From IMG/VR virus record IMGVR_UViG_3300032001_000013, positions 1 to 45,046 of that record: 45,046 nt of DNA; one strand, written 5' to 3'. A model generated the notes under the pieces. That model worked only from the letters and a program-made list of their open reading frames with translations, was not told the DNA's origin and made no database searches. The translations under genes were made by a program, and so were the position numbers. This DNA is from a virus. Taxonomy: Duplodnaviria > Caudoviricetes. This document shows positions 112 to 41,665 of the stretch, piece after piece (positions within the stretch are counted from its first letter, which is position 1; every line of letters begins with the position of its first letter).

Positions 112-550
112 GCCTGCCGAGCCGGGCATTGCCCACCCGTGCCGATCCGTGCCCTTGCCTGCGCTGCCGCGCGATGCCCCGCCGAGCTGCGCCTTGACGT
201 GCTGAGCGATTCCTGCCCCGACTTGCCGAGCCGTGCGGTGCGATCCGTGCCGACCGAACGGCGCCCAGCCGAGCCTTGGGCTGCCTCTGCCTGCCTCACA
301 ATGGCATGCCTCGCCCCGCCTTGGAACGCCTCGCCATGCTTTTCCGGCCGAGCCGGGCCGGGCTGCGCTAGGCCCTCGAAGCCACGCCTAGCCTTTCCTG
401 CCTCGCCCAGTGCCGCATCGCCGTCCACGCCGTGCAGCGGGGTGCCACGACGGCCGCACCTTGCCTTGCCCTGCATTCCGCGCAGAGCCGAGCTGTCCGG
501 ACGGTGCCGGGCCAAGCCACGCGATCCGATCCCGTGCCGGGCCCTGACGT
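112..550 (-). repeat. GGY-NN pentamer array 1 (about 7 units; putative non-contiguous guide RNA)
   Basis: 5-nt periodic GCC-NN on + strand (GGC-NN on -), units separated by GGCAGG/GGCCGTC-type spacers; promoter-like TATCTT-CC-TTGATA at 563-550 on -; hairpin at about 79-110 downstream. Confidence 0.9.
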
Positions 551-8933: not shown

Positions 8934-9370
8934 GCCTCAAGACCCTGCTCGGGCTCGTCCTGGCGGCGTTCCTGGCCATCGGCGGCTCGCTGCTCGCCGC
9001 GGGGTCCGCCAGCGCGTCCCAGGTCAGCAACCCGGCGGACAACACGCACTTCGCCCTGAAGTATGACGCGGGCACGTCGGTGCCCGGTCACGTGGTGCAC
9101 TGGGACTGCGCGGGCGAGCGCATCAACAACAACGGCCAGGGCATCCGCGACGTCGAGGAGTGCACCCTGACCGGCAACACCGGGGACTACGTGCCCGGCC
9201 GTTACGGCAGCCTGGGCCTGCCGCCGAACCCGAACTTCGGCCCGTTCCCCGGCTTCCCGGGGAACAACAGCTTCTTCTGGTTCAGCGACTTCGACGGCAA
9301 GATCGCCGTTACCTGGAGCGTCGTGATCAACGGCGCATCCAGCCATGCCCATGTCGACGCGACCTACTGA
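8930..9370 (+). CDS. Secreted protein
   Basis: Signal peptide ending SASA; GTGA overlap. Confidence 0.8.
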   Translation: MSLKTLLGLVLAAFLAIGGSLLAAGSASASQVSNPADNTHFALKYDAGTSVPGHVVHWDCAGERINNNGQGIRDVEECTLTGNTGDYVPGRYGSLGLPPNPNFGPFPGFPGNNSFFWFSDFDGKIAVTWSVVINGASSHAHVDATY

Positions 9371-9383
9371 CAAGGAGGCAACG

Positions 9384-9755
9384 ATGCCAGCTCTCATCCA
9401 GCAGAGCTTCGATAAGCCCGAGGAGACGCGGCCCTTCGACCCGCCGCAGTCCGGCCACCTGGACCTGGTGGCAGGCGGCCAGGTGGGCCGGGCCGAGTTC
9501 GCCCCGGGCTGGCGGTGGAGCACCAACGTGCGGCCGATCGCCGGCGGCAACAGCTGCCAGCAGGCGCACGTCGGCTACTTCATCCAGGGCCAGATGACCG
9601 TCCGGGCCGATGACGGCACGGAGGTCACCTACGGGCCCGGCGACTACGCCGAGATGGCCCCCGGGCACAACGCCTGGGTGCCCGAGGACCAGGACGGGCC
9701 CACCGTGGTCATCGACTGGACCGGCTTCACCACCTACGCCCAGCCCCAGGGCTAG
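9384..9755 (+). CDS. Cupin domain protein
   Basis: PGWRWS, CQQAHVG, PGHNAWV cupin motifs; RBS AAGGAGG. Confidence 0.9.
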   Translation: MPALIQQSFDKPEETRPFDPPQSGHLDLVAGGQVGRAEFAPGWRWSTNVRPIAGGNSCQQAHVGYFIQGQMTVRADDGTEVTYGPGDYAEMAPGHNAWVPEDQDGPTVVIDWTGFTTYAQPQG

Positions 9756-9767
9756 GCACCCGAGAGC

Positions 9768-9799
9768 GAGCGCCCCGGTCACCCGCAACCGGGGCGCTC
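9768..9799 (+). terminator. Hairpin/terminator
   Basis: 12-bp stem GAGCGCCCCGGT / ACCGGGGCGCTC. Confidence 0.6.
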
Positions 9800-9852
9800 C
9801 GCCATGTCCGGACAGATTCCCCGTGATCTCCCCGTGACTTGACATGCAGTGC

Positions 9853-9867
9853 TAGGTTTATTGATAT
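9853..9867 (+). promoter_or_regulatory. Phage promoter motif TANNNT-N2-3-TTGAYA (representative copy)
   Basis: Copies at 4483, 5028, 5919, 6674, 7889, 8422, 9853, 11252, 15090, 16881, 24481, 32752, 34492 (+) and 563, 26910, 30033, 37478 (-). Confidence 0.8.
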
Positions 9868-9890
9868 TGACCGACCAAGCGGGAGAACGG

Positions 9891-11249
9891 ATGAGAACCG
9901 AGACGGAGATCGTTGCCGCCATGAGAGCGGCGGCGCAGCCAGGACGGCTGCGCCTGAGCAGGCAGGTCACCGCGCAGCTGCGGGGCCTGACCGATGAGCT
10001 GGCGGCAGCCCGGCCGGCCTCGGCGCAGGAGTACGCGCGGTTCCTGGCCATCGGCCGCCGCGGCATGGTCCTGCCCGAGGCGGAGCTGGCCGGCCGGATC
10101 CGGCATGCCACCATCCTGGTGACCGGCGGGACCGGCTGCATCGGCACTGAGCTGATCCGCCAGCTGGCTGAGCGGCGGTCGGGCCTGGGCTGCCTGGTCA
10201 GCGTCAGCCGCGGCATCACCAGCGGCTACCCGCGTCACCCTGAAGTCAAGTACCGGCATGCCGACATCTGCGATCGCGCTGCCATGAATGAGCTGATGGC
10301 CGAGATCAGGCCCGATCTGGTCTTCCACGTGGCGGGCCAGCGCGACCCGGGCCTGGCCGAGACCGAGGTGCACCGCACCGTGACCACCAACGTGCTCGGC
10401 ACCCGCGCCGTGCTGGTCGCGGCGGTACGGGCCGGCGTCCCCCAGGTGGTGTGCTGCTCGACCGGCAAGGCACTGCGGCCGTACTCCCCTGACGTGTACA
10501 CGGCATCCAAGCGCGCGGCCGAGTGGGTCGCCTCGGGCGTGGCCGCTGCCACCCCCATGCTGGTCTCGGCCAGCCGGTTCACGCACGTGATGGACAACTC
10601 GATCATCTGCCGGAAGCTGTGGCGCTGGGCGGAGGCCGGCCGTGCCATGCGGCTGCACGACCCCGGTATCGCGTTCTACGTCCAGTCGGCCCGGGAGTCC
10701 GCCCAGCTGCTGCTGCTGGCGGTCCTGGAGGCCCGCCGGGGCGAGTTCCGGGTCAACGCCCTGACCGATCTCGGCTGGCCGGTGAGCCTGCTGGACGTCG
10801 CGCTGGGGACGCGGGCGGCGGCAGGCCCGGAGTCGCCGGTCTACTTCAGCGGCTACGACCGCGGGTACGAGGAGACCCCGTTCCCGGGCCTGTACGACCC
10901 GCTGACCGCGGGCGGGGTGAGCCCGCTGCTGAACATGTTCGAGGCCGCCGCGAAGACGGGCTGGGCCGAGGGCCAGGCCGACACGTTCCGGCTGGGCTTC
11001 GCGCCCGACCGGCAGGCCCTCAAGCGGCTGGCCGTGCTCGCCGAGGTCTGCGGCAGCACCACGAACCCGGGGCTTGCCCGGGGCTGCCTCGATGAGCTGT
11101 CCTGGGCGCTGCTGTCCGCGGCCACGCGGGCGGTCCCGCCCGCGCTGCTGGCCCGCTCGGCCAAGATGGCCCGGCAGCAGGAGCCGCTGAGCGACGTGCA
11201 CCGCCGCGTCCTGGAGGTTATCGAGTCAGCGACCGGTGTATTCGGGTAA
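9891..11249 (+). CDS. CapD-like NAD-dependent nucleotide-sugar epimerase/dehydratase (polysaccharide biosynthesis)
   Basis: ILVTGGTGCIG Rossmann motif, VFHVA, NVLGT, STGKA, YTASK. Confidence 0.85.
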   Translation: MRTETEIVAAMRAAAQPGRLRLSRQVTAQLRGLTDELAAARPASAQEYARFLAIGRRGMVLPEAELAGRIRHATILVTGGTGCIGTELIRQLAERRSGLGCLVSVSRGITSGYPRHPEVKYRHADICDRAAMNELMAEIRPDLVFHVAGQRDPGLAETEVHRTVTTNVLGTRAVLVAAVRAGVPQVVCCSTGKALRPYSPDVYTASKRAAEWVASGVAAATPMLVSASRFTHVMDNSIICRKLWRWAEAGRAMRLHDPGIAFYVQSARESAQLLLLAVLEARRGEFRVNALTDLGWPVSLLDVALGTRAAAGPESPVYFSGYDRGYEETPFPGLYDPLTAGGVSPLLNMFEAAAKTGWAEGQADTFRLGFAPDRQALKRLAVLAEVCGSTTNPGLARGCLDELSWALLSAATRAVPPALLARSAKMARQQEPLSDVHRRVLEVIESATGVFG

Positions 11250-11290
11250 GCTAGGTTCATTGATATTCATTCACCCGAGGGGGACTACTC

Positions 11291-12634
11291 ATGACTGCCG
11301 CGCCGGGGCGACCCTGGGCTGAGGGCGAGCCTGCCCACCAGTTCCAGGTACCCGCGTACCAGCCGCCCGCCCATCTCCTGGGCCCGTTCCGCGTTCCCGA
11401 CGACACCAGCACCCAGGTCATGCCCGCCTGGCGGCCCGAGGAGACCGTCACGGCGCCGCTGCCGCTGGGCCAGCCCGAGCCGGTCCCGGCGCCGCGGCGC
11501 AACCGGATCATCGCCCTGGTGCCCGTGCACAACGGGGAAGCGGACCTGGCCCCGGCCATCGAGGCGCTGCTGGCCCAGACCCGCCCGCTGGACGAGATCA
11601 TCATCATCTCCGACAACTCGACAGACGGCACCGTGGCGGTCGCGAGCCGCTACCCGGTGACGGTGATCGAGTCGGCAGGCAACAGGTACCGCAAGTCCGG
11701 CGCGCTGAACCAGGCCTGGCGCAAGTACGCCCAGGACGCCGACTACGTGGTGTGCATCGACGATGACACCCGGCTGCCGCCGTTTGCGGTGGAGCACTTC
11801 GAGGCCGAGATGACCGAGGATCCCGGGGTAGGTGGCATCTCCTGCCAGGTGGTGATGCGGGGCAGCAGCATCCTGAGCCGGATCCAGCGGGCCGAGTTCG
11901 CGCAGAGCACGGTGCTGAGCCGGAACCGGGGCTGGGTCCGGGTCATCTCGGGCACCGGCTGCATCTTCCGCAACGAGGCGCTGCGCGAGGCCGCCCTGCT
12001 CCCGGGCCAGGAGGGCCCGTGGACCTACCGCAGCGTGGTCGAGGACTACCACCTGACCTTCCAGCTGCGCAAGCTGGGCTGGCTGTGCATCATGAGCAAG
12101 GACGTGTGGTGCGACACCGGCAGCATGCCCTCGGTGAAGGCGCTGTGGCACCAGCGGGTCAAGTGGCAGTCCGGCACGATCGGCGACCTGATCAACTTCG
12201 GCTTCAACCGGATGAACTGGCGCGAGTGGATGCAGCAGTTCTACGGCCTGATCTGCGTGGCCTTCTGGATCCTGTGGATCTCGCTGAACGGGACCGCCTG
12301 GGCCCTGGGCGGGCTGCACCCGAACATCTGGTGGGTCATCTTCCCGGCGATCTTCGCGGGGACCGAGTGCTTCTACGCCTGGCACATCCACGGCCGCGAC
12401 TGGAAGGACATGCTGCTGGCCGTCTCCATGGTCAAGATGATGATCTACACCTTCCTGTGCATGGGCTGGAACCTGGCCAGCTGGTGGATCATCCTGCGCG
12501 GCAAGCAGAAGGACCTGTGGGCTGCCCAGTACGTCGCCGACGGGACAGACAAGGTACTAGGGGAGGGAATGAGCGATGCCGGACCTGCCAGCGAAGAGGA
12601 CCGTCGTCCCGCGCCGCAGGCGCTATGCCGTTAG
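11291..12634 (+). CDS. Processive GT2 glycosyltransferase (cellulose/PNAG synthase-like)
   Basis: PVHN, DNSTD, KSGALN, DDD, VED, QRVKW (QxxRW-like) and C-terminal TM helices. Confidence 0.9.
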   Translation: MTAAPGRPWAEGEPAHQFQVPAYQPPAHLLGPFRVPDDTSTQVMPAWRPEETVTAPLPLGQPEPVPAPRRNRIIALVPVHNGEADLAPAIEALLAQTRPLDEIIIISDNSTDGTVAVASRYPVTVIESAGNRYRKSGALNQAWRKYAQDADYVVCIDDDTRLPPFAVEHFEAEMTEDPGVGGISCQVVMRGSSILSRIQRAEFAQSTVLSRNRGWVRVISGTGCIFRNEALREAALLPGQEGPWTYRSVVEDYHLTFQLRKLGWLCIMSKDVWCDTGSMPSVKALWHQRVKWQSGTIGDLINFGFNRMNWREWMQQFYGLICVAFWILWISLNGTAWALGGLHPNIWWVIFPAIFAGTECFYAWHIHGRDWKDMLLAVSMVKMMIYTFLCMGWNLASWWIILRGKQKDLWAAQYVADGTDKVLGEGMSDAGPASEEDRRPAPQALCR

Positions 12635-13697
12635 CGCGGCCCTGGGGACCGTGGCAGCGGCCGTGCTGGGCCTGGCGCTCTGGTCGATGGCCGGCGTGAC
12701 CGCGGCCTACCGCGGGGTGACCCCGGCCGCCGCGGCAGCGGCAGCGCCCGCGCCCCGGCCGCTGGTGATCTACCACGCGCCGTTCGTCAGGTACGAGAGG
12801 GCCAGGGCCGTGCCGGTGCTGGTCTACCACGAGATGAACAACGGCTGCGCGCCCTCGGCGCCGGTCTGCAAGGCGGCCGACCCGGAGACGGTGAGCACCG
12901 CCCAGTTCCGGGCCGAGATGGCCTACATGTTCAGCCGCGGCTACCACACCGTCACCATGGCGCAGTACCAGGCCTGGCTGGGCAACCGCAAGACGAGGCT
13001 GCCGTCCAGGCCGTTCCTGATCACGGCGGACAACGGCATCTGGAGCTTCCTGTCCGGGGCCCAGCCGGTCCTGGCGGGCTACGGCTACACCGCCGTGGCC
13101 GCGGTCGTGACCGGGTTCGCCGACGGGGCTGGCGGGCACTGCGCGCCGCGGATCGGCGGGGTCAGCGTCCAGCCGGGCTGCCCGCGGGACAACGCCGGCT
13201 GGGATGCCACCTGGGCCCAGCTCCGGTCGCTCGACCCGAGGGTGTGGGAGTTCATCCTGGAGGCCGGGCCGTCCGGCCACTACGTCCAGGATTACGACCC
13301 GCACTGCCGGATGTTCGACGCCTGCCTGCTGCCCGGCGAGACCGTGGCGCAGTACCAGGTCCGCCTGGCGGCCGAGCTGGGCGGCGGCGAGACGGCGCTG
13401 GCTGCCCGCCTGGGCAGCCGCGTGAACCCCGGCGGCTGGGTGGTCCCCTACAGCGACCTGGGCTACCCGCGCTGCGCGCAGGGCGACTGCACGCCGCAGG
13501 ACGCCACGATCCCGCAGGGCTACCTGGTGAATTACGCCGATGCTCACTTCCGGGCCGTCTTCGTCGAGGATGCTTCCCGCAATGCCATCGGCCACGAGCG
13601 GTTCCGGTTCGACGTCAACGGCCCGGACACCGAGGCCTCATTCCAGAGCCAGCTGGCGGCTTTCACCGCCGCGGGCGCATTCGACAGGAGCAGGTAA
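12576..13697 (+). CDS. Polysaccharide deacetylase-like secreted/anchored protein
   Basis: VPVLVYHE, GYHTVT, FLITADNG (TFDDG-like); N-terminal TM. Confidence 0.75.
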   Translation: MPDLPAKRTVVPRRRRYAVSAALGTVAAAVLGLALWSMAGVTAAYRGVTPAAAAAAAPAPRPLVIYHAPFVRYERARAVPVLVYHEMNNGCAPSAPVCKAADPETVSTAQFRAEMAYMFSRGYHTVTMAQYQAWLGNRKTRLPSRPFLITADNGIWSFLSGAQPVLAGYGYTAVAAVVTGFADGAGGHCAPRIGGVSVQPGCPRDNAGWDATWAQLRSLDPRVWEFILEAGPSGHYVQDYDPHCRMFDACLLPGETVAQYQVRLAAELGGGETALAARLGSRVNPGGWVVPYSDLGYPRCAQGDCTPQDATIPQGYLVNYADAHFRAVFVEDASRNAIGHERFRFDVNGPDTEASFQSQLAAFTAAGAFDRSR

Positions 13698-19147: not shown

Positions 19148-19273
19148 GCCAAGGTGAGGCTAGGCATCGCGTGTCCTGGCACGGATGGGCATGGCGGGGC
19201 CCGGCAGGAGTGGCTCGGCTTGGGGTGGCTCGTCTAGGAGTTGCCCGGCGTGGCTGGGCAGGTACGGCAAGGA
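19148..19273 (+). repeat. GGY-NN pentamer array 2 (2 units)
   Basis: Strict 5-nt register with GGCAGG separators; units match the flanking genes when decoded. Confidence 0.9.
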
Positions 19274-31766: not shown

Positions 31767-32029
31767 GCACGCTGTGGGCCCGGATCCCGAAGACCGCCGC
31801 GGGCGTCTGCCCGTCCTGCGGGTACAACCTGCCCTATCACGAGACCCGCTGCCCTGAGCGCGGGCTCAGCCCGCTCCAGATCCGGCTGGAGATCGCCAAC
31901 ATGTCCGACGCCCAGTCAAATGAGCGGTGCGTCAGCTGCGGCCACCGGATCGGCGGCGGCGGCGCGGTCATCAGGGGCGAGGGCCTGGCGCACAAGTTCG
32001 ACTGCACCGCCCCGGGCGTGTGGGGCTGA
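31763..32029 (+). CDS. Small zinc-finger protein
   Basis: CPSCG, CVSCG; coupled overlaps. Confidence 0.7.
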   Translation: MSTLWARIPKTAAGVCPSCGYNLPYHETRCPERGLSPLQIRLEIANMSDAQSNERCVSCGHRIGGGGAVIRGEGLAHKFDCTAPGVWG

Positions 32030-32742
32030 TGCCCCCGTCCGTCGCCACCGTCTCCGGCGAGACCGCTGAGTTCGTCATCAGCGGCGACCCCGACCGGATG
32101 ATCATGCTGGTGCCCAGGCTGAACGGCAACCGGGCCCGGAACCTGGCCAACGCCGCGGTGCGCGAGGCCCGCAGGATCATGCCCAAGCTGACCGGCCGGG
32201 CCGCCCAGCGCCTGGTGCCGGTCTACGGCTACGGGTTCTTCGGCATCCACTGGGCCGACGCGTACGTGTACTTCCAGGAGAAGGGCATCCGGCCGTTCAC
32301 GATGACCCACCTGGCCGGCAAGACGATCCCGATGTGGGTCGACGACCCGACCGGCACCGAGAAGCAGCGCAACCCGAGGGCGCAGACCCGCACCACGATC
32401 TCGGGCAAGCCGCAGGTGCTGATCTTCCGCCGGGCCGCGCAGATCGGGGCGACCAGGACGATCCGGACCAAGGTCGCCGGGCAGTGGGAGGTCAGGACGG
32501 TGCCCGCGTCCTACCCGGGCGCCCCGGGCCGGATCGGCCGACGCGAGGCCGCCATCCCCTGGACGACCGCGGGCCGCCAGGGCGGCCAGATCGCCCAGGC
32601 CAACATCGGCGTCCGCTGGCGCCACCCCGGCCTGGCCCCGCGATTGTTCATGAACCGGGCGATCACCTTGGCCGCTCAGCAGGGCGGCATCCTGCCGACG
32701 CGGATCTACGTCGCTGACAGATTCTGGAGATCGCATTTCTGA
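32029..32742 (+). CDS. Putative neck/tail-completion protein
   Basis: MPKLTG, Q..G..PFTM, WRHPG..PR.FM motifs typical of gp10-like neck proteins. Confidence 0.65.
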   Translation: MPPSVATVSGETAEFVISGDPDRMIMLVPRLNGNRARNLANAAVREARRIMPKLTGRAAQRLVPVYGYGFFGIHWADAYVYFQEKGIRPFTMTHLAGKTIPMWVDDPTGTEKQRNPRAQTRTTISGKPQVLIFRRAAQIGATRTIRTKVAGQWEVRTVPASYPGAPGRIGRREAAIPWTTAGRQGGQIAQANIGVRWRHPGLAPRLFMNRAITLAAQQGGILPTRIYVADRFWRSHF

Positions 32743-32766
32743 TTTTCCTGATAAGGTTCATTGATA

Positions 32767-33770
32767 GGCCTGGCCGGGCCAGGCGAAGCCTTGACAGCGC
32801 GTCAAGGCATCGCGTGGCAGGAAAGGCTAGGCGTGGTGCCGATCGCCCGGCGTCGCTCTGCTAGGCAGTCGAGGCGCAGCCCGGCGCGGATGGCCGGGCC
32901 GGGTAGCGCCAGGCAGAGCAGGGCAGGGCAGGATGGGCCCCGCTCGGATGGCTGGGCATGGCAGCGCAGGAAAGGAATGTCTTGGCCTGGCCAGGCGAGG
33001 CCCGGCGGGGCAGTCATGGCTCGTCTAGGCATTGCGGGCCAGGGCGAGGCGAGGCAGGCGATTGCTCGGCGGGCCGTGGCGCCGCAGGGCAGGTCTAGGC
33101 AGGCTAATGGTTCAGTGAACCATTAAGGCAGCCAAGGCATGCCGGGGCGAGGCTCCGCGGGGCATCGCCGGGTATCGCAAGGCCGTCATCGCGGGGCACC
33201 GCCCGTCCTGGATGGGCATGGCGCCGCGCGGCGCTGCCAGGCAGGATTGGCGAGGCTTGGCCCAGGCATTGCCGGTCGTGGCACCGCCCGGCAAGGCAGG
33301 AGAGTCTGGGCTAGGCGGGGCATCGCTCAGCGCGGCGAGGCACAGTGCCGCGAGGCCGGGCGGGGCTAGGCAGTCCAGGCATCGCTCGTCGCGGCCAGGC
33401 ATGGCCCGGCGAGGCGCAGCGAGGCAGTCCCGGTATCGCTCGGATGGCTTGGCCAGGCAAGGCCAGGCAGGGCCGTCGAGGCGTGGCCTTGCGCCGCCTG
33501 GACCGCAACGCATCGCAAGGCTGGGCAAGGCAGGTGCAGCCTGGCAAGGCAGTGCCTGGCGGCGCAACGCGCAGCCTGGCCAGGCGAGGCAGTCAGGTCG
33601 TGGCGAGCCTTGGCCCGGCAGTGCCCGGCCCGGCAGCGCCCGGCACGGCATGGCAGGAGATGCTAGTCAGGGCCAGGCTCGGCTCGGATCGCGCGGCTCG
33701 GCGCGGCAGGAGCAGCTTGGCATGGCGGGGAGAGGCTGAGCCCGGCTAGCGGGGCAAGGCGCGGCAGGTA
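32767..33770 (+). repeat. GGY-NN pentamer array 3 (about 18 units)
   Basis: Starts right after promoter TAAGGT-TCA-TTGATA (32752); internal palindrome at 33105-33125. Confidence 0.92.
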
Positions 33771-33789: not shown

Positions 33790-34494
33790 GTGACTACTCC
33801 TCAGCCGTTCGTCCCGGCGTATCCGGCCGGCTTCTTGCGCGTCATCAAGGCCGGCTCGGTCGACGCGCTGAACCAGGCCTTCGCGATCGCCTACCCCGAG
33901 CAGGATGCGGCCGGCGGGATCCAGGCGCCGTACATCAGCATCGACTACCCGGTGAGCCAGGGCGCCTACCCGGGCATCTGGGTGGACTTCGAGGTGGCCA
34001 TGCTGCGCACCGCGGGCATCGACCACATCGAGATGCTGGATGACGGCACGGTGCTGGCCCGCTGGCGGTTCCAGGGCTACGCGGTGTTCACCACCGTGGC
34101 GCTGAACAGCAACGAGTGCGACGGGATCTACGACCAGCTGGTGGCGCTGACCGCGTTCGCCGCTCAGTCCGAGGTGCCCTCGGTCTTCCGCGATGTCATC
34201 GACTCCAACGGCCTGGTGAGCACCACCTGGAGCTACGACACGGTGGAGGCCCGCGGCCAGTCCGCGGCGCCGGGCACGCCCTGGGGCACCACCGAGATCA
34301 TCTACGAGCGCGGCATCGCGCTGAAGGTGATCGGCGAGTTCGTCACCAACCCGGCCTCGGCCGTCTACGAGCTGGTGCCGCTGAGCAAGATCATCATCAC
34401 CGGCCAGATGCAGATCGACGACGTGAACGCCGGCGACCCGTTCATCCTGACCATCCCGCCGGAGACCCCGCCGTTCACCCCGCTTCCCGGCTAA
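33790..34494 (+). CDS. Putative tail terminator protein
   Basis: SIDYP...YPGIWV motif; position before sheath. Confidence 0.65.
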   Translation: MTTPQPFVPAYPAGFLRVIKAGSVDALNQAFAIAYPEQDAAGGIQAPYISIDYPVSQGAYPGIWVDFEVAMLRTAGIDHIEMLDDGTVLARWRFQGYAVFTTVALNSNECDGIYDQLVALTAFAAQSEVPSVFRDVIDSNGLVSTTWSYDTVEARGQSAAPGTPWGTTEIIYERGIALKVIGEFVTNPASAVYELVPLSKIIITGQMQIDDVNAGDPFILTIPPETPPFTPLPG

Positions 34495-34505
34495 GGTTCT
34501 TTGAT

Positions 34506-35324
34506 AGCATGGTGGTCCTGGGCTGGGCGTCGGTGGCACATCACGTCCAGGCCGGGCGTGGCCGTCCAGGCGCGGATAGCCAGGACGGCGCGTCCAGGCG
34601 CTGCCGCGCTCGGCAGTCCTGGTGTCGCGAGGCGGGGCAGTGCGTCGCTGGTCGCGGCAAGGCAAGGCCCGGCTCGGCCGTCGCGGTTAGTCTGCGCGTG
34701 TCGGTGCTGGGCCCGGAGCGCTAGGCTTCGCTGGGCCGTCGGCGCATCGCTATGCGTGGCCCGGCTTGGCGTGGCAAGGCCTCGCATCGCAAGGCAAGGC
34801 CGTCGAGGCTTAGCTGGTCTGGGCACGGGATGCCAGGCACGGCGGGGCGCGGCCGTCCAGGCTGGTCTAGGACATCCCGTCGAGGACTGGCGTGGCCGTC
34901 AAGGCCTGGCGGGTCCGGGCCCGGTACCGCATGGCACAACTCGGCGCGGCCGGAGATGCTGGGCTAGGCGAGGCATCGCGGGGCGCGGCGAGGCTAGGCC
35001 GTCTGCGCGGGGCTCGGCAAGGGTCGCTCCGCTCGGCAGGGCACGGCGAGGCCGGGTTGGCAAGGGTCGCCCGGGTGGCGTTGCATCGCTTGGCCGTCCT
35101 GGTATAGCCCGGCGTCGCATTGCGAAGCGGCGCGGGGCATGGCCTGGCTGTCGAGGCTGAGCTTGGCGCTGCGTCGCTTGGCGCTGCGAGGCTGGGCGCG
35201 GCCGTCCTGGCCCGGCCCGGAGGCGCAACGCGGGTCCAGGCGAGGCAGGGCTAGGCCGTCTAGGCACGTCCCGGCGGGTCGGGGCTGAGCTAGTCGCCGC
35301 CTGGCAAGGTGTGGTGAGGCAGGA
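34506..35324 (+). repeat. GGY-NN pentamer array 4 (about 15 units)
   Basis: Follows promoter TAAGGT-TCT-TTGATA (34492); GGCCGTC separators. Confidence 0.92.
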
Positions 35325-35377: not shown

Positions 35378-36931
35378 GTGACGGTTCCGACTTTTTCGTC
35401 TTATCAGCCTCCTGGCGTCTACGTCTCCGACGTCACCGGGCCCATCGTCACCACGACCGGGGTCTTCCCGCAGATCCTGACGCTGGTCGGGCCGGGGCTC
35501 GGCTACCGCACCGCGGTCCAGACCTTCCAGATCTTCGCGGGCACGGGCGCCATCCTGAACTTCACCGGGGTCTTCACCACCGCCCAGGCCGGGCCCCCGG
35601 CGATCGCCGCGCCCGTGATGACGGTCACCGGCTCCAGCACCATCCTGGCCCAGGGCACCGACTACAGCTTCACCGTGACCCCGGACCCCTCGGGCAACGC
35701 CGCGCTGGCGGTCACCTCGGTCTTCCGGGTCGGCACCTCGACCAGCATCGCCGACGGCGCCCAGGTGACGATCACCTACAACTACGCCGACGTCACGTAC
35801 TACCAGCCGCAGCTGTTCACCAACTTCCCCGCGGTCACCAACGCCTACGGCCAGCCCCTGGTGGCCGCCGCGCCGACCCAGGCCAACGTCAGCCAGGTGG
35901 CCAACCCGCTGAGCTACGCCGCGCAGACCGCATTCGGCGCCGGGGCCAACCAGGTCATCGCGTGCGCCTGCAACCCGGCGGACGGCACCCTGGAGCAGCA
36001 GCTGCTCGCCGCGTACACCAAGCTGGCTGCCGTCTACGACTCGACCCTGGTGGTCCCGGTCTTCCCCGACTACCTGGGCGGCTTCGCGGGCGGCTCCGGC
36101 GTGTCCCAGTACGCCCTGACGCTGGCCACCGACCTGGACGGCGCGATGCAGGGCGCCAGCGTCAACGGCTACCCTCGGATCGGCTTCTTCGGGCTGCCGG
36201 TGGACTACTCCGAGTCGGCGCTGCCGGTGCCGAGCTTCTCCGCCTCGATCGCCGACAAGCGGCTGGTGCTGGCCTACCCCAAGGCCCTCCAGGCCTACAA
36301 CCCGCTGACCCGGCAGACGTTCAGCGCCTCGGGCTGCTACCTGGCGGTCGCGCTGGCCGCGGTGCTGTCGGCGCTGCCGGTGAACACCGGGCTGACCGGC
36401 CAGGCGGTGCCCGGCTTCGCGGGGCTGACCGCGGCCGAGCTTCAGGCGATGACCCCGGCGTTCATGAACAGCCTGGCCCAGGCCGGGACCACGGTGGTCT
36501 ACCAGAGCCGCAACGGCGGGCTGACCTGCCGGCATGGCCTGACCACCAACATGAGCGCGCTGAACACCCGGGAGATCTCACTGGTCCGCCAGGCCGATGC
36601 CCTGCTGGTGTCCCTCCAGGCCGGGATGGAGAACTCCGGGCTGATCGGCACGCCGATCACCGCGAACACGGTGGCCACGGTGCAGGGCGCGATCGTCTCG
36701 ATCCTCCAGCAGGACATCGCCCAGGGCATCATCGCCAGCTACACGAACCTGGTGGTCGCCCAGCAGCAGTACCCGGGCGGCGACCCGACGGTGATCACCG
36801 CGACCTTCTCCTATGTCCCGAGCGTCCCGCTGAACTACATCGAGGTCACGTTCAGCATCGACCTCAGTGCTGGCCTGGTGTCCCAGCAGTCACAGCAGAA
36901 CGCGGCAGCTCCCACCGTCTCCGTGACCTGA
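35378..36931 (+). CDS. Contractile tail sheath protein
   Basis: Y..PGVYV N-terminus; RHGLTT, REISLVR..D, P..PLNYI.V.F C-terminus. Confidence 0.92.
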   Translation: MTVPTFSSYQPPGVYVSDVTGPIVTTTGVFPQILTLVGPGLGYRTAVQTFQIFAGTGAILNFTGVFTTAQAGPPAIAAPVMTVTGSSTILAQGTDYSFTVTPDPSGNAALAVTSVFRVGTSTSIADGAQVTITYNYADVTYYQPQLFTNFPAVTNAYGQPLVAAAPTQANVSQVANPLSYAAQTAFGAGANQVIACACNPADGTLEQQLLAAYTKLAAVYDSTLVVPVFPDYLGGFAGGSGVSQYALTLATDLDGAMQGASVNGYPRIGFFGLPVDYSESALPVPSFSASIADKRLVLAYPKALQAYNPLTRQTFSASGCYLAVALAAVLSALPVNTGLTGQAVPGFAGLTAAELQAMTPAFMNSLAQAGTTVVYQSRNGGLTCRHGLTTNMSALNTREISLVRQADALLVSLQAGMENSGLIGTPITANTVATVQGAIVSILQQDIAQGIIASYTNLVVAQQQYPGGDPTVITATFSYVPSVPLNYIEVTFSIDLSAGLVSQQSQQNAAAPTVSVT

Positions 36932-36933
36932 TT

Positions 36934-37458
36934 GCCTGCCCTACCCTGCACAGCTAAGCGCTCCAAGCCAAGACGAGCGCAGACGGCCATGCCCTGCCAA
37001 GCGTTCCGTGCCCGGCCTCGCCTTGACGGCCATGCCCAGCTCCGCGAGCCCGCGCCTAGCCAGGCCTCTCCGGCCGAGCGCTCCACGCCAAGCCCTGCCA
37101 AGCACGGCCTAGTCGTGCCATGCCGCTCCGGCCTCGCCACGCTCAGCGACGCCAGTCCTCGCCGAGCCAAGCGACTCCTGCCGAGCCGAGCGCGGACATC
37201 CCGGGCCGCGCCAATCCCGGCCAGGCCGCGACTGCCCGGCCCTGCCTAGCCAGGACTAGCCGCCCTGGCCCCGCGGTGCGTTTCCGGCCCCGCCAAGCCC
37301 CGCCGTGCCTAGCCACGCGACGCCCAGCAATGCGCTGACGGCCGTGCCGGGCACAGCGGCCCATGCCGGTCCAAGCGCAGCAACACCTGGACGGCCTCGC
37401 CTCAGCGTGCCCTGGCAAGCCATCTAAGCCAGGCCCGGATGTGCGGCGCCAAGACTGC
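36934..37458 (-). repeat. GGY-NN pentamer array 5 (about 10 units)
   Basis: GCC-NN register on +; promoter TAGAAT-CA-TTGACA at 37478-37465 on -. Confidence 0.92.
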
Positions 37459-41261: not shown

Positions 41262-41665
41262 GCCTGCCTTGCCCTGCCACGCCTATCTATGCTGCTCCGA
41301 GCCCTTGCCTGCCTTGCCCCGCCTTGCCGTGCCAGGCTTCGCCGTCCGAGCCGCTCCTGCCTAGCCTCGCCATACTGCGCCTGTCCTCGCTATGCTGCGA
41401 CTCGCCGCGCCTCGCCAGGACTGCCCTGCCGCACCGTGCCTCGCCCAGCTGTGATCGCCCTGCCCAGCAGCGCCTTGACTGCCTTGCCCGGCATTGCCCA
41501 GCGGCCCTTGCCGGGACAGGCCCGGACATGCCAGGACTGCCTCGCCTCGCCCCGCCCTGCCCAGCCAAGACTGGCCATGCCGTCCCTTGACGGCCGCGCC
41601 CTGCTGAGCCTTGCGGAGCCGGGCCCCGCCTACCCGGGCCCTGCCGTGCCTTCGTCTCCTGCCTG
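41262..41665 (-). repeat. GGY-NN pentamer array 6 (about 7 units)
   Basis: GCC-NN register on + with GACTGCC separators; downstream of - gene 41808..42347. Confidence 0.88.

What the first reader, a model, noticed from the sequence alone, without database searches (positions are those of the whole stretch)
33592..33651. Array 3 unit spells a STAND/NB-ARC P-loop
In perfect 5-nt register, the reverse-complemented NNs at gt gg ct gg gg ct gg aa tc ac ct read I/M-V-G-L-G-G-L-G-K-S-T-L. This is the GxGGxGK(S/T) Walker A of NB-ARC/NLR-like ATPases, which include antiphage sensors.
Basis: partly seen in the sequence, partly recalled or inferred. Interest (0 to 1): 0.85.

Follow-up and report, generated by a model that had tools for sequence, protein, structure and literature searches.

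The report
Phage guide RNA spells STAND P-loop
A soil phage carries a repeat unit with the layout of a VIPR guide RNA whose variable letters spell, codon by codon, the ATP-binding motif found in bacterial NLR-like (STAND) proteins, so it likely switches off such a host gene, possibly an immune sensor, although no exactly matching target gene was found.

Summary
Observation confirmed. Window 33592-33651 is 12 unbroken xxC-NN pentamers, one unit of a staggered VIPR-type array in a 45-kb fragment of an actinobacterial myovirus. Under the published one-base-skip rule it reads (I/M)VGLGGLG(K/N)STL; chance expectation for GxGGxGK[ST] among the window's 43 guides is about 7e-5. No exact target turned up in GTDB, JGI metagenomes or IMG/VR. 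Near matches (21-22 of 24 bases) in actinobacterial genomes: 24 STAND/NB-ARC genes, 6 ABC transporters, 2 without a family, against 0 for the control pattern. The closest fits are an EAD1-NB-ARC protein, AfsR-type regulators and an AAA_25 primase-helicase (22 of 24 each), so the NTPase family is likely, not shown. Two other guides in the window match motifs I and II of DrmD-like SNF2 helicases in defence-island-like loci, and NTPase motifs are enriched across guides of related phages. No vipr gene lies on this contig; a relative with 99% capsid identity has one. Verdict: real VIPR guide aimed at a Walker A; STAND of any kind about 0.6, immune-type STAND about 0.4, mobile-element helicase about 0.2. 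Host-defence targets are not in the parts of three VIPR papers that I read or searched.

The parts
33592..33656 (+). Focal guide (predicted vrRNA): 12 NN units plus terminal GGCAG; first G shared with the previous unit (staggered array); decodes to (I/M)VGLGGLG(K/N)STL
32767..33767 (+). Array 3: staggered VIPR-type array, units of mostly 8-12 NN ending in GGCAG/GGCCG and starting tcNN or gaNN
   Evidence: tails: GGCAG 22, GGCCG 20, CGCAG 1 of 43 window guides; heads tc 22, ga 15
32753..32766 (+). Promoter-like phage motif (TAnnnT-nn-TTGAYA, one mismatch) directly before array 3; fixes the likely transcribed strand
   Evidence: (10 exact copies, 0.00 expected)
33105..33125 (.). Near-perfect palindrome inside array 3, second copy at 51-69 behind the first array; unexplained
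34535..35322 (+). Second staggered array, with promoter-like motif at 34493-34506
36984..37455 (-). Staggered array behind the tail sheath gene, with promoter-like motif at 37478-37465
41264..41658 (-). Staggered array; no promoter motif found
114..548 (-). Staggered array, with promoter-like motif at 563-550
451..543 (-). Guide decoding to ..A(D/E)(D/E)VGVGKT(I/M)(I/M)VG: SNF2 motif I; 20/20 over its best 10 NN and 25/28 to a DrmD-like gene (G510)
213..344 (-). Run (probably two guides) whose 3' part decodes to ..V(I/M)V(D/E)(D/E)A(H/Q): SNF2 motif II; 19/20 to a DrmD-like gene beside BREX genes (G010)
19148..19207 (+). Short solo guide-like run of 11 NN
31927..32742 (+). Upstream gene, phrog_2819 (unknown function; virion module of this phage group); not Vipr
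33790..34494 (+). Downstream gene, phrog_2748; not Vipr
35378..36931 (+). Tail sheath gene (myovirus), flanked by arrays
   Evidence: phrog_2839, E 2e-46

Best explanation
The unit has the layout of one VIPR guide RNA, and its twelve variable dinucleotides spell a Walker A motif; it likely leads a phage Vipr filament to the P-loop codons of a host NB-ARC/STAND gene of the immune or conflict type and is predicted to block that gene's transcription during infection. Steps: (1) shown: staggered pentamer array with a phage promoter-like motif in front, 12-NN unit, Walker A reading; (2) from the papers: Vipr binds the scaffold triplets, each NN pairs with two target bases, the third (wobble) base is skipped, binding inside a gene represses it on either strand; (3) inferred: the array is transcribed from the + strand and cut at the GGCAG junctions, so the RNA pairs with the coding strand of the target; (4) inferred: the Vipr is encoded elsewhere in this phage's genome; (5) inferred from near matches: the target is a STAND (any kind, about 0.62), of the TIR/EAD1/CHAT/TPR conflict type rather than an AfsR-type regulator (about 0.42); aiming at positions 1-2 of invariant P-loop codons would leave the host no silent escape and may cover several paralogues.
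For: Array anatomy equals the staggered arrays of bioRxiv 10.64898/2026.04.26.720920 fig. S18 legend. Chance expectation about 7e-5. Gapped search with up to 3 mismatches: 9 of 401, 3 of 151, 14 of 151 and 3 of 5 genomes, reversed-pattern control 0 in each; 24 of the 32 distinct matches are STAND Walker A codons in frame, and the 6 ABC matches all lack the second glycine of the GG pair. Exact 10-NN core in metagenomes: 8 of 8 in-frame Walker A, 7 STAND-like (5 distinct; TIR-CHAT-AAA_16-TPR, AAA_16-TPR, TIR-NB-ARC-TPR and two fragments without a Pfam hit). An actinobacterial EAD1/TIR-NB-ARC subfamily has the guide's unusual V-before-G plus KSTL in 17 of 55 members, best match 22/24. Small profiles favour NB-ARC over AAA_25 five- to eight-fold. 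Context: across 135 guide clusters of the phage clade GxGK[TS] occurs in 4 (0.034 expected) and DEA[HQ] in 3 (0.029); 7 of 116 guides match 200 kb of DrmD-centred loci with 2 or fewer mismatches against 0 of 232 shuffles, control DNA 1 of 116 against 1 of 232; those loci hold PglX, BrxL, DruE-like, TmtA-like and methylase genes. Vipr in a relative with 99% capsid identity and an 83%-identical vipr in 3 of 4 runs that hold the window's DNA.
Against: No 24/24 target in 185,579 GTDB genomes, JGI metagenomes or IMG/VR (10-NN core); the GTDB core search gave 1 hit, antisense and out of any P-loop. No match in 18, 6, 5, 5 and 1 further genomes. The host family was not sampled on purpose: I could not find a centre for it. 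AAA_25 ties for best match (22/24, L129) and GLGGLGKS occurs in 2 phage AAA_25 genes and no phage STAND among 19 viral hits. About half of the STAND near matches are BTAD or HTH regulators; none of the 12 STAND proteins scanned hit a PADLOC STAND/Avs model. Leu at motif positions 4 and 7 was seen in 0 of 55 of the EAD1 subfamily and Leu-4 in 0 of 24 other NB-ARC. A P-loop-shaped pattern finds P-loop genes by construction, so the genome hits say which family fits, not that one is targeted. The EAD1 set and locus L158 were picked through the guides themselves (3 of the 7 island matches are circular); motifs were chosen after looking. No vipr on the contig; only 6 of 40 related records, 2 of 12 complete ones, have one. 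5 of 13 scaffold triplets are not GGY. No second guide hit the 260 kb of STAND loci above shuffles, and no orthologous GxGGxGK guide was found in IMG/VR. Published natural targets are mobile elements.
Confidence: 0.42

Rival explanations
1. The guide is aimed at the Walker A of an AAA_25 (RepA-like) primase-helicase of a satellite, integrative element or competing phage: the ordinary, published VIPR role.
For: L129 AAA_25 matches 22/24; phage AAA_25 genes L198 (21/24, 67% GC) and L193 carry GLGGLGKS; Ser after GK in 12 of 14 AAA_25 against 2 of 24 NB-ARC motifs; published targets are satellites and prophages.
Against: All three AAA_25 hits read LAG, not IVG; only 3 of 14 actinobacterial AAA_25 motifs keep the glycine at position 6 and 5 of 14 at position 5; 0 AAA_25 among 32 genome near matches; guides do not match 1.56 Mb of related phage DNA above shuffles (109 guides); sibling guides match defence-island helicases.
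Confidence: 0.2
2. The target is a STAND, but an AfsR/SARP-type or HTH transcription regulator, silenced to steer host metabolism or chemical defence, not an immune sensor.
For: Three orthologous BTAD-NB-ARC genes match 22/24; BTAD or HTH domains in about half of STAND near matches; defence and non-defence STAND clades are interspersed (PMC13581612, passages).
Against: Those 22/24 hits read GKTTL and GP, whereas KSTL with V-before-G is typical of the EAD1/TIR-NB-ARC set; exact-core metagenome hits with a Pfam call are TIR/CHAT/TPR proteins, none BTAD.
Confidence: 0.2
3. The target is another P-loop NTPase (ABC transporter, VirE/VapE, kinase or a defence ATPase not sampled), or the guide is a stale copy whose target has drifted.
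For: 6 ABC matches at 21/24; VapE hit at 19/24; no exact target anywhere.
Against: All 6 ABC matches have Ser where the guide has the first Gly of GG; ABC genes are very numerous, so a few near matches are expected.
Confidence: 0.1
4. The array is a VIPR array but this reading is chance; the true target is unrelated DNA in another frame or strand.
For: Post hoc motif spotting; no exact target; most of the 43 window guides give no recognisable motif.
Against: Expectation 7e-5; independent NTPase motifs in sibling guides, with 19-20/20 matches to real genes in codon register.
Confidence: 0.05
5. The region is a low-complexity protein gene or a plain tandem repeat.
For: Open frames overlap it (33112-33651 -, 33212-33739 +, 33345-33749 +); TRF reports a 15-nt repeat at 33612-33650.
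Against: None passes the high-GC codon filter; register shifts by 4-nt units; fixed tails and heads, promoter-like leader and neighbouring vipr genes in relatives.
Confidence: 0.01

Closest known systems
VIPR systems with staggered vrRNA arrays (bioRxiv 10.64898/2026.04.26.720920, fig. S18; SUSP1 Vipr, PDB 36pp)
   Same: Pentamer scaffold/NN units, 9-16 units per guide, 1-nt overlap between guides, skip at the wobble base; relative's Vipr matches SUSP1 Vipr and folds like Csm3/Cas7.
   Different: No vipr or vap on this contig; five arrays with 43 or more guides scattered through the virion module; degenerate scaffolds and internal 4-nt units that still count as a step; no long structured tail; decoded targets look like host NTPases, not prophage or satellite genes.
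SUSP1 anti-satellite VIPR and orphan vrRNAs (bioRxiv 10.64898/2026.10.15.759431)
   Same: Guide sits on catalytic codons with the skip on the wobble base; arrays away from a vipr gene exist.
   Different: Their four target classes are vipr, satellites, vrRNAs and unassigned, plus host REP decoys; no host protein gene in the parts read.
Phage crRNA-like regulatory RNAs that silence bacterial immune genes (bioRxiv 10.1101/2024.10.29.618823; search listing and start of abstract only)
   Same: Phage RNA guides that repress host immunity at the level of transcription.
   Different: They borrow host Cas proteins and pair contiguously; here the effector would be a phage Vipr and the code is gapped.
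Bacterial NB-ARC/AP-ATPase STANDs: EAD1/TIR-linked conflict effectors (PMC7159879, passages), Avs and bNACHT sensors (PMC13581612 passages; listings), AfsR regulators
   Same: Walker A hhGxGGxGK[ST]xL fits the decoded guide at 21-22 of 24 bases.
   Different: The EAD1/TIR-NB-ARC proteins are predicted conflict effectors, not tested antiphage sensors in what I read; no member found matches all 12 positions.

Membership tests
VIPR vrRNA array | Tandem pentamers, fixed GGY-like triplet with variable NN, 9-16 units per guide | tested here: met
   12 units; 8 of 13 triplets GGC, 13 of 13 end in C; 30 of 43 window guides have 9-12 NN
VIPR vrRNA array | Staggered layout, guides overlapping by 1 nt (one published architecture) | tested here: met
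   GGCAG|tcNN junctions on both sides of the unit; legend of fig. S18
VIPR system | vipr gene (RAMP fold, G-loop) in the same element | tested here: inconclusive
   Absent from the 45-kb contig; present in G402, 99% capsid identity; 83%-identical copy in 3 of 4 runs holding the window, linkage not shown
VIPR system | vap accessory gene | tested here: inconclusive
   None on the contig; a 158-aa Vap1-like ORF follows vipr in G402, judged by eye
VIPR system | 1-nt skip code, skip on the wobble base of a natural target | tested here: met
   Met for sibling guides (20/20 and 19/20 in frame to DrmD-like genes); for the focal guide only near matches; other skip lengths were not tested
VIPR system | Small RNA expressed, processed and bound by Vipr; repression | not testable with these tools
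   No RNA holder listed
VIPR type II (SUSP1) | Invariant structured 3' tail of tens of bases after each guide | tested here: not met
   Units end in a 5-nt GGCAG/GGCCG and the next unit follows at once; no folding was run
Target = STAND/NB-ARC | Walker A hhGxGGxGK[ST]xL | tested here: met
   Decoded motif; 24 of 32 genome near matches and 7 of 8 metagenome core matches are STAND-like
Target = STAND/NB-ARC | An actual gene with the site and a full NB-ARC domain | tested here: inconclusive
   Best 22/24; exact searches empty; host lineage not sampled
Target = antiphage STAND (Avs, bNACHT) | Match to a described antiphage STAND model or shown defence | tested here: inconclusive
   12 near-match STAND proteins hit no PADLOC STAND model; TIR and TPR models only; these are stand-ins, not the target
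Target = AAA_25 primase-helicase | Walker A with GKS in a RepA-like domain | tested here: inconclusive
   22/24 and 21/24 matches exist; profile odds 5-8 to 1 against on 13-14 motifs

The most novel reading that the evidence does not exclude
This clade of soil actinophages carries a VIPR guide library aimed at host immunity: dozens of guides sit on the invariant catalytic codons of NLR-like STAND sensors, DrmD-like SNF2 helicases and UvrD-type defence helicases, so one small Vipr silences whole families of defence genes that cannot escape by silent mutation. It would be an RNA-programmed, multiplex anti-defence system.
Probability: 0.35. Interest if true: 0.85.

Novelty: new variant of a known kind. 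Interest (0 to 1): 0.62.

Why it matters
VIPR is described as a weapon between viruses and, in types III and V, as host defence. A phage guide on the P-loop of a host NLR-like gene would turn it into anti-defence by transcriptional silencing, and would be a route by which phages counter STAND sensors, which detect essential phage proteins that cannot easily change. Decoded guides would also point at which of the many uncharacterised NB-ARC and SNF2 genes of soil actinobacteria matter against phage. The claim is directly testable with the published reporter assay.

Tried and rejected
Exact 12-NN pattern: 0 in GTDB and metagenomes; 10-NN core: 1 chance antisense hit in GTDB, 0 in IMG/VR. SNF2 guide in IMG/VR: 0. 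Orthologous GxGGxGK guide in IMG/VR: 3 hits, all simple repeats. Relatives of the downstream gene: none. Vipr/Vap profiles on the window: nothing. Guides against related phage DNA: same as shuffles. Other guides against STAND loci: same as shuffles. Host centre by cupin and glycosyltransferase: best genomes only 60-63% identical, so the family samples are probably not the host; the only taxon-named hit among 92 glycosyltransferase relatives is a Streptosporangiaceae MAG, a weak hint. PglX search to gather more islands: 0 of 131. No RNA holder listed; no evidence either way. No tRNA genes. Earlier findings by place and by first word set: none. Rows dropped: 6 of 30 AAA_25 and 3 of 30 NB-ARC loci without a regex Walker A, duplicates collapsed to 14 and 24, 4 of 59 proteins. 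My parser merges some neighbouring guides and missed a few short ones, so guide counts are approximate. No complex prediction was run.

Full report
Setting. The window is a whole 45,046-base virus record, 66-74% GC. Capsid, tail sheath and neighbouring genes match PHROGs of a myovirus group; the capsid is 57-60% identical to Mycobacterium and Gordonia phages (the label 'Bxz1-like, cluster C' is recalled). The host is an actinobacterium by inference; one Streptosporangiaceae MAG is the only taxon-named hit among 92 relatives of the phage glycosyltransferase.

Observation. Five such arrays lie in the window, parsed into 43 guides of 6 or more NN; 42 of 43 end in GGCAG or GGCCG and 37 of 43 start tcNN or gaNN. 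A phage motif TAnnnT-nn-TTGAYA occurs 10 times exactly (0.00 expected) and, with at most one mismatch, directly before 4 of the 5 arrays on the GGC strand, array 3 included. I read it as a promoter; that is inference.

What it is. This is the anatomy of VIPR vrRNAs. I read parts 1-3 of 6 of bioRxiv 10.64898/2026.04.26.720920 and term passages, searched its supplement PDF (data files S1-S4 not held), read parts 1 and 3 of 8 and passages of 10.64898/2026.10.15.759431, passages of 10.64898/2026.04.26.720927 and of 10.64898/2026.10.21.760802. They give the one-base skip, its alignment with the wobble base, repression from either strand, staggered arrays that overlap by 1 nt, and targets in satellites, prophages, vipr genes, vrRNAs and host REP repeats. 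No vipr or vap lies on our contig. Among 40 related viral records, 6 have a Vipr match; G402 (capsid 99% identical) has vipr and a Vap1-like gene beside long staggered arrays. A nine-row profile holding it hits SUSP1 Vipr at E 2e-24 (alone E 0.002) and its model matches Csm3/Cas7 folds. Three of 4 runs that hold the window's DNA carry a contig about 83% identical to that vipr, in X17 at depth 10.9 against 13.1 for the array contig; linkage is not shown.

Is the P-loop reading chance? Expected GxGGxGK[ST] in the window's guides: 2.1e-5 plus 5.1e-5 for the other orientation. Across 135 guide clusters from the window and relatives, GxGK[TS] appears in 4 (shuffle mean 0.034), DEA[HQ] in 3 (0.029), hhDE in 4 (0.93); DFG was not enriched (1 against 0.50), and the forward decode gave GK[TS] 5 times but GxGK[TS] once. 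Motifs were chosen after looking. The window's guide at 543-451 matched 1 of 301 Actinomycetes genomes at 25/28, control 0: motif I of a DrmD-like SNF2 between DruE-like and TmtA-like genes. On 200 kb around five DrmD-profile hits (5 of 201 genomes), 7 of 116 guides had 2 or fewer mismatches in their best 10-NN window against 0 of 232 shuffles; on 160 kb of control DNA 1 of 116 against 1 of 232. Three of the 7 are circular (locus found with that guide); the motif II guides (window 344-213 at 19/20, L018, L021) and L025 are not, though they stand for only two or three guide lineages. These loci hold PglX, BrxL and methylases. Both window matches run through 4-nt units, so those count as a step of the code.

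Which NTPase? No exact site: GTDB 0, metagenomes 0, viral core 0, GTDB core 1 chance hit. With up to 3 mismatches: 9 of 401, 3 of 151, 14 of 151, 3 of 5, and 0 of 18, 6, 5, 5, 1; controls 0 throughout. Of 32 distinct matches 24 are STAND (two by P-loop plus AAA_16 or TPR only), 6 ABC, 2 without family. Best are 22/24: three orthologous BTAD-NB-ARC genes and one EAD1-NB-ARC gene (G648). The exact core GLGGLGKSTL gave 8 metagenome hits, all in-frame Walker A: 7 STAND-like (5 distinct, 21/24) and 1 AAA_25 (22/24). GLGGLG(K/N)S gave 19 viral hits, 3 in P-loops: two AAA_25, one VapE. Profiles from Walker A motifs gathered by family, not by sequence, give log10 likelihood -7.05 for NB-ARC (24 motifs) and -7.71 or -7.95 for AAA_25 (14 or 13). 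The EAD1/TIR-NB-ARC subfamily shows hVGxxGxGKSTL in 17 of 55 but never Leu at 4 or 7. PMC7159879 (passages) treats EAD1 and AP-ATPase proteins as predicted conflict effectors; PMC13581612 (passages) says defence and non-defence STAND clades are interspersed. PADLOC gave no STAND-system hit for 12 near-match STANDs.

Mechanism. Shown: array, unit, reading, near matches. From papers: code and repression. Inferred: + strand transcription, cutting at GGCAG junctions, a Vipr in trans, pairing with the coding strand of a Walker A, repression of a host STAND. One untested idea: the two positions where the guide departs from the family (4 and 7) both carry AG, the dinucleotide of the constant tail, which keeps the T of a hydrophobic codon; it may be a compromise that covers several paralogues. 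Odds: immune-type STAND 0.42, regulator STAND 0.2, AAA_25 of a mobile element 0.2, other or stale 0.1, chance 0.05.

Novelty. Paper searches list three VIPR papers and one that recovers arrays; term searches in two main texts and one supplement found no ATPase, NB-ARC, SNF2 or host defence-gene target. Their target tables were not visible and may bear on this. An earlier agent report of this scan proposes VIPR guides against CBASS and Bil genes, another found such a claim weak, two found mobile-element targets; none was checked here. Verdict: a new variant of a known system, with the target family likely and the target gene unfound.

Noticed in passing
window 543-451 and 344-213 (-); L018, L020, L021, L025: Guides spell SNF2 motifs I and II and match DrmD-like genes at 19-20 of 20; relatives carry independent versions of both.
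   Followed up: yes
G402 arrays (L104 8193-8149, L105 6256-6197, 5620-5576, 4561-4507): Guides read like (L/F)VDEFQDT (UvrD motif II, label recalled), GAGKT(H/Q)LL, GKTT(I/M)ALL and (I/M)DFG(F/L); targets not searched.
   Followed up: no
window, 13 sites incl. 5028, 5919, 8422, 9853, 11252, 15090, 16881, 24481, 30032: Phage-wide promoter-like motif TAnnnT-nn-TTGAYA before accessory genes and four arrays (10 exact, 0 expected).
   Followed up: partly
window 33105-33125 and 51-69: The same 19-bp palindrome interrupts array 3 and follows the first array; found in 3 of 267 loci, all near-identical phages.
   Followed up: partly
all arrays: About half of the guides hold one internal 4-nt unit (scaffold without its C) that still counts as a step in the two matched guides; scaffold G1/G2 are often changed while the C stays.
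   Followed up: partly
G422, G426, G433 (L100-L102): More distant relatives carry a second, divergent Vipr family with a different accessory gene, so VIPR entered or left this clade more than once; 34 of 40 records have none.
   Followed up: partly
window 9345-13697: Cupin, NAD-dependent epimerase and family 2 glycosyltransferase behind phage promoters: a possible surface or DNA modification cassette.
   Followed up: partly
window 19148-19207 (+): Solo guide-like run between virion genes.
   Followed up: no
L164/L165 (G010) and L166/L167 (G563): DrmD-like SNF2 lies tail to tail with an Hsp70-like ORF (by eye) and near a DUF262-type gene in both loci; a possible recurring module.
   Followed up: no
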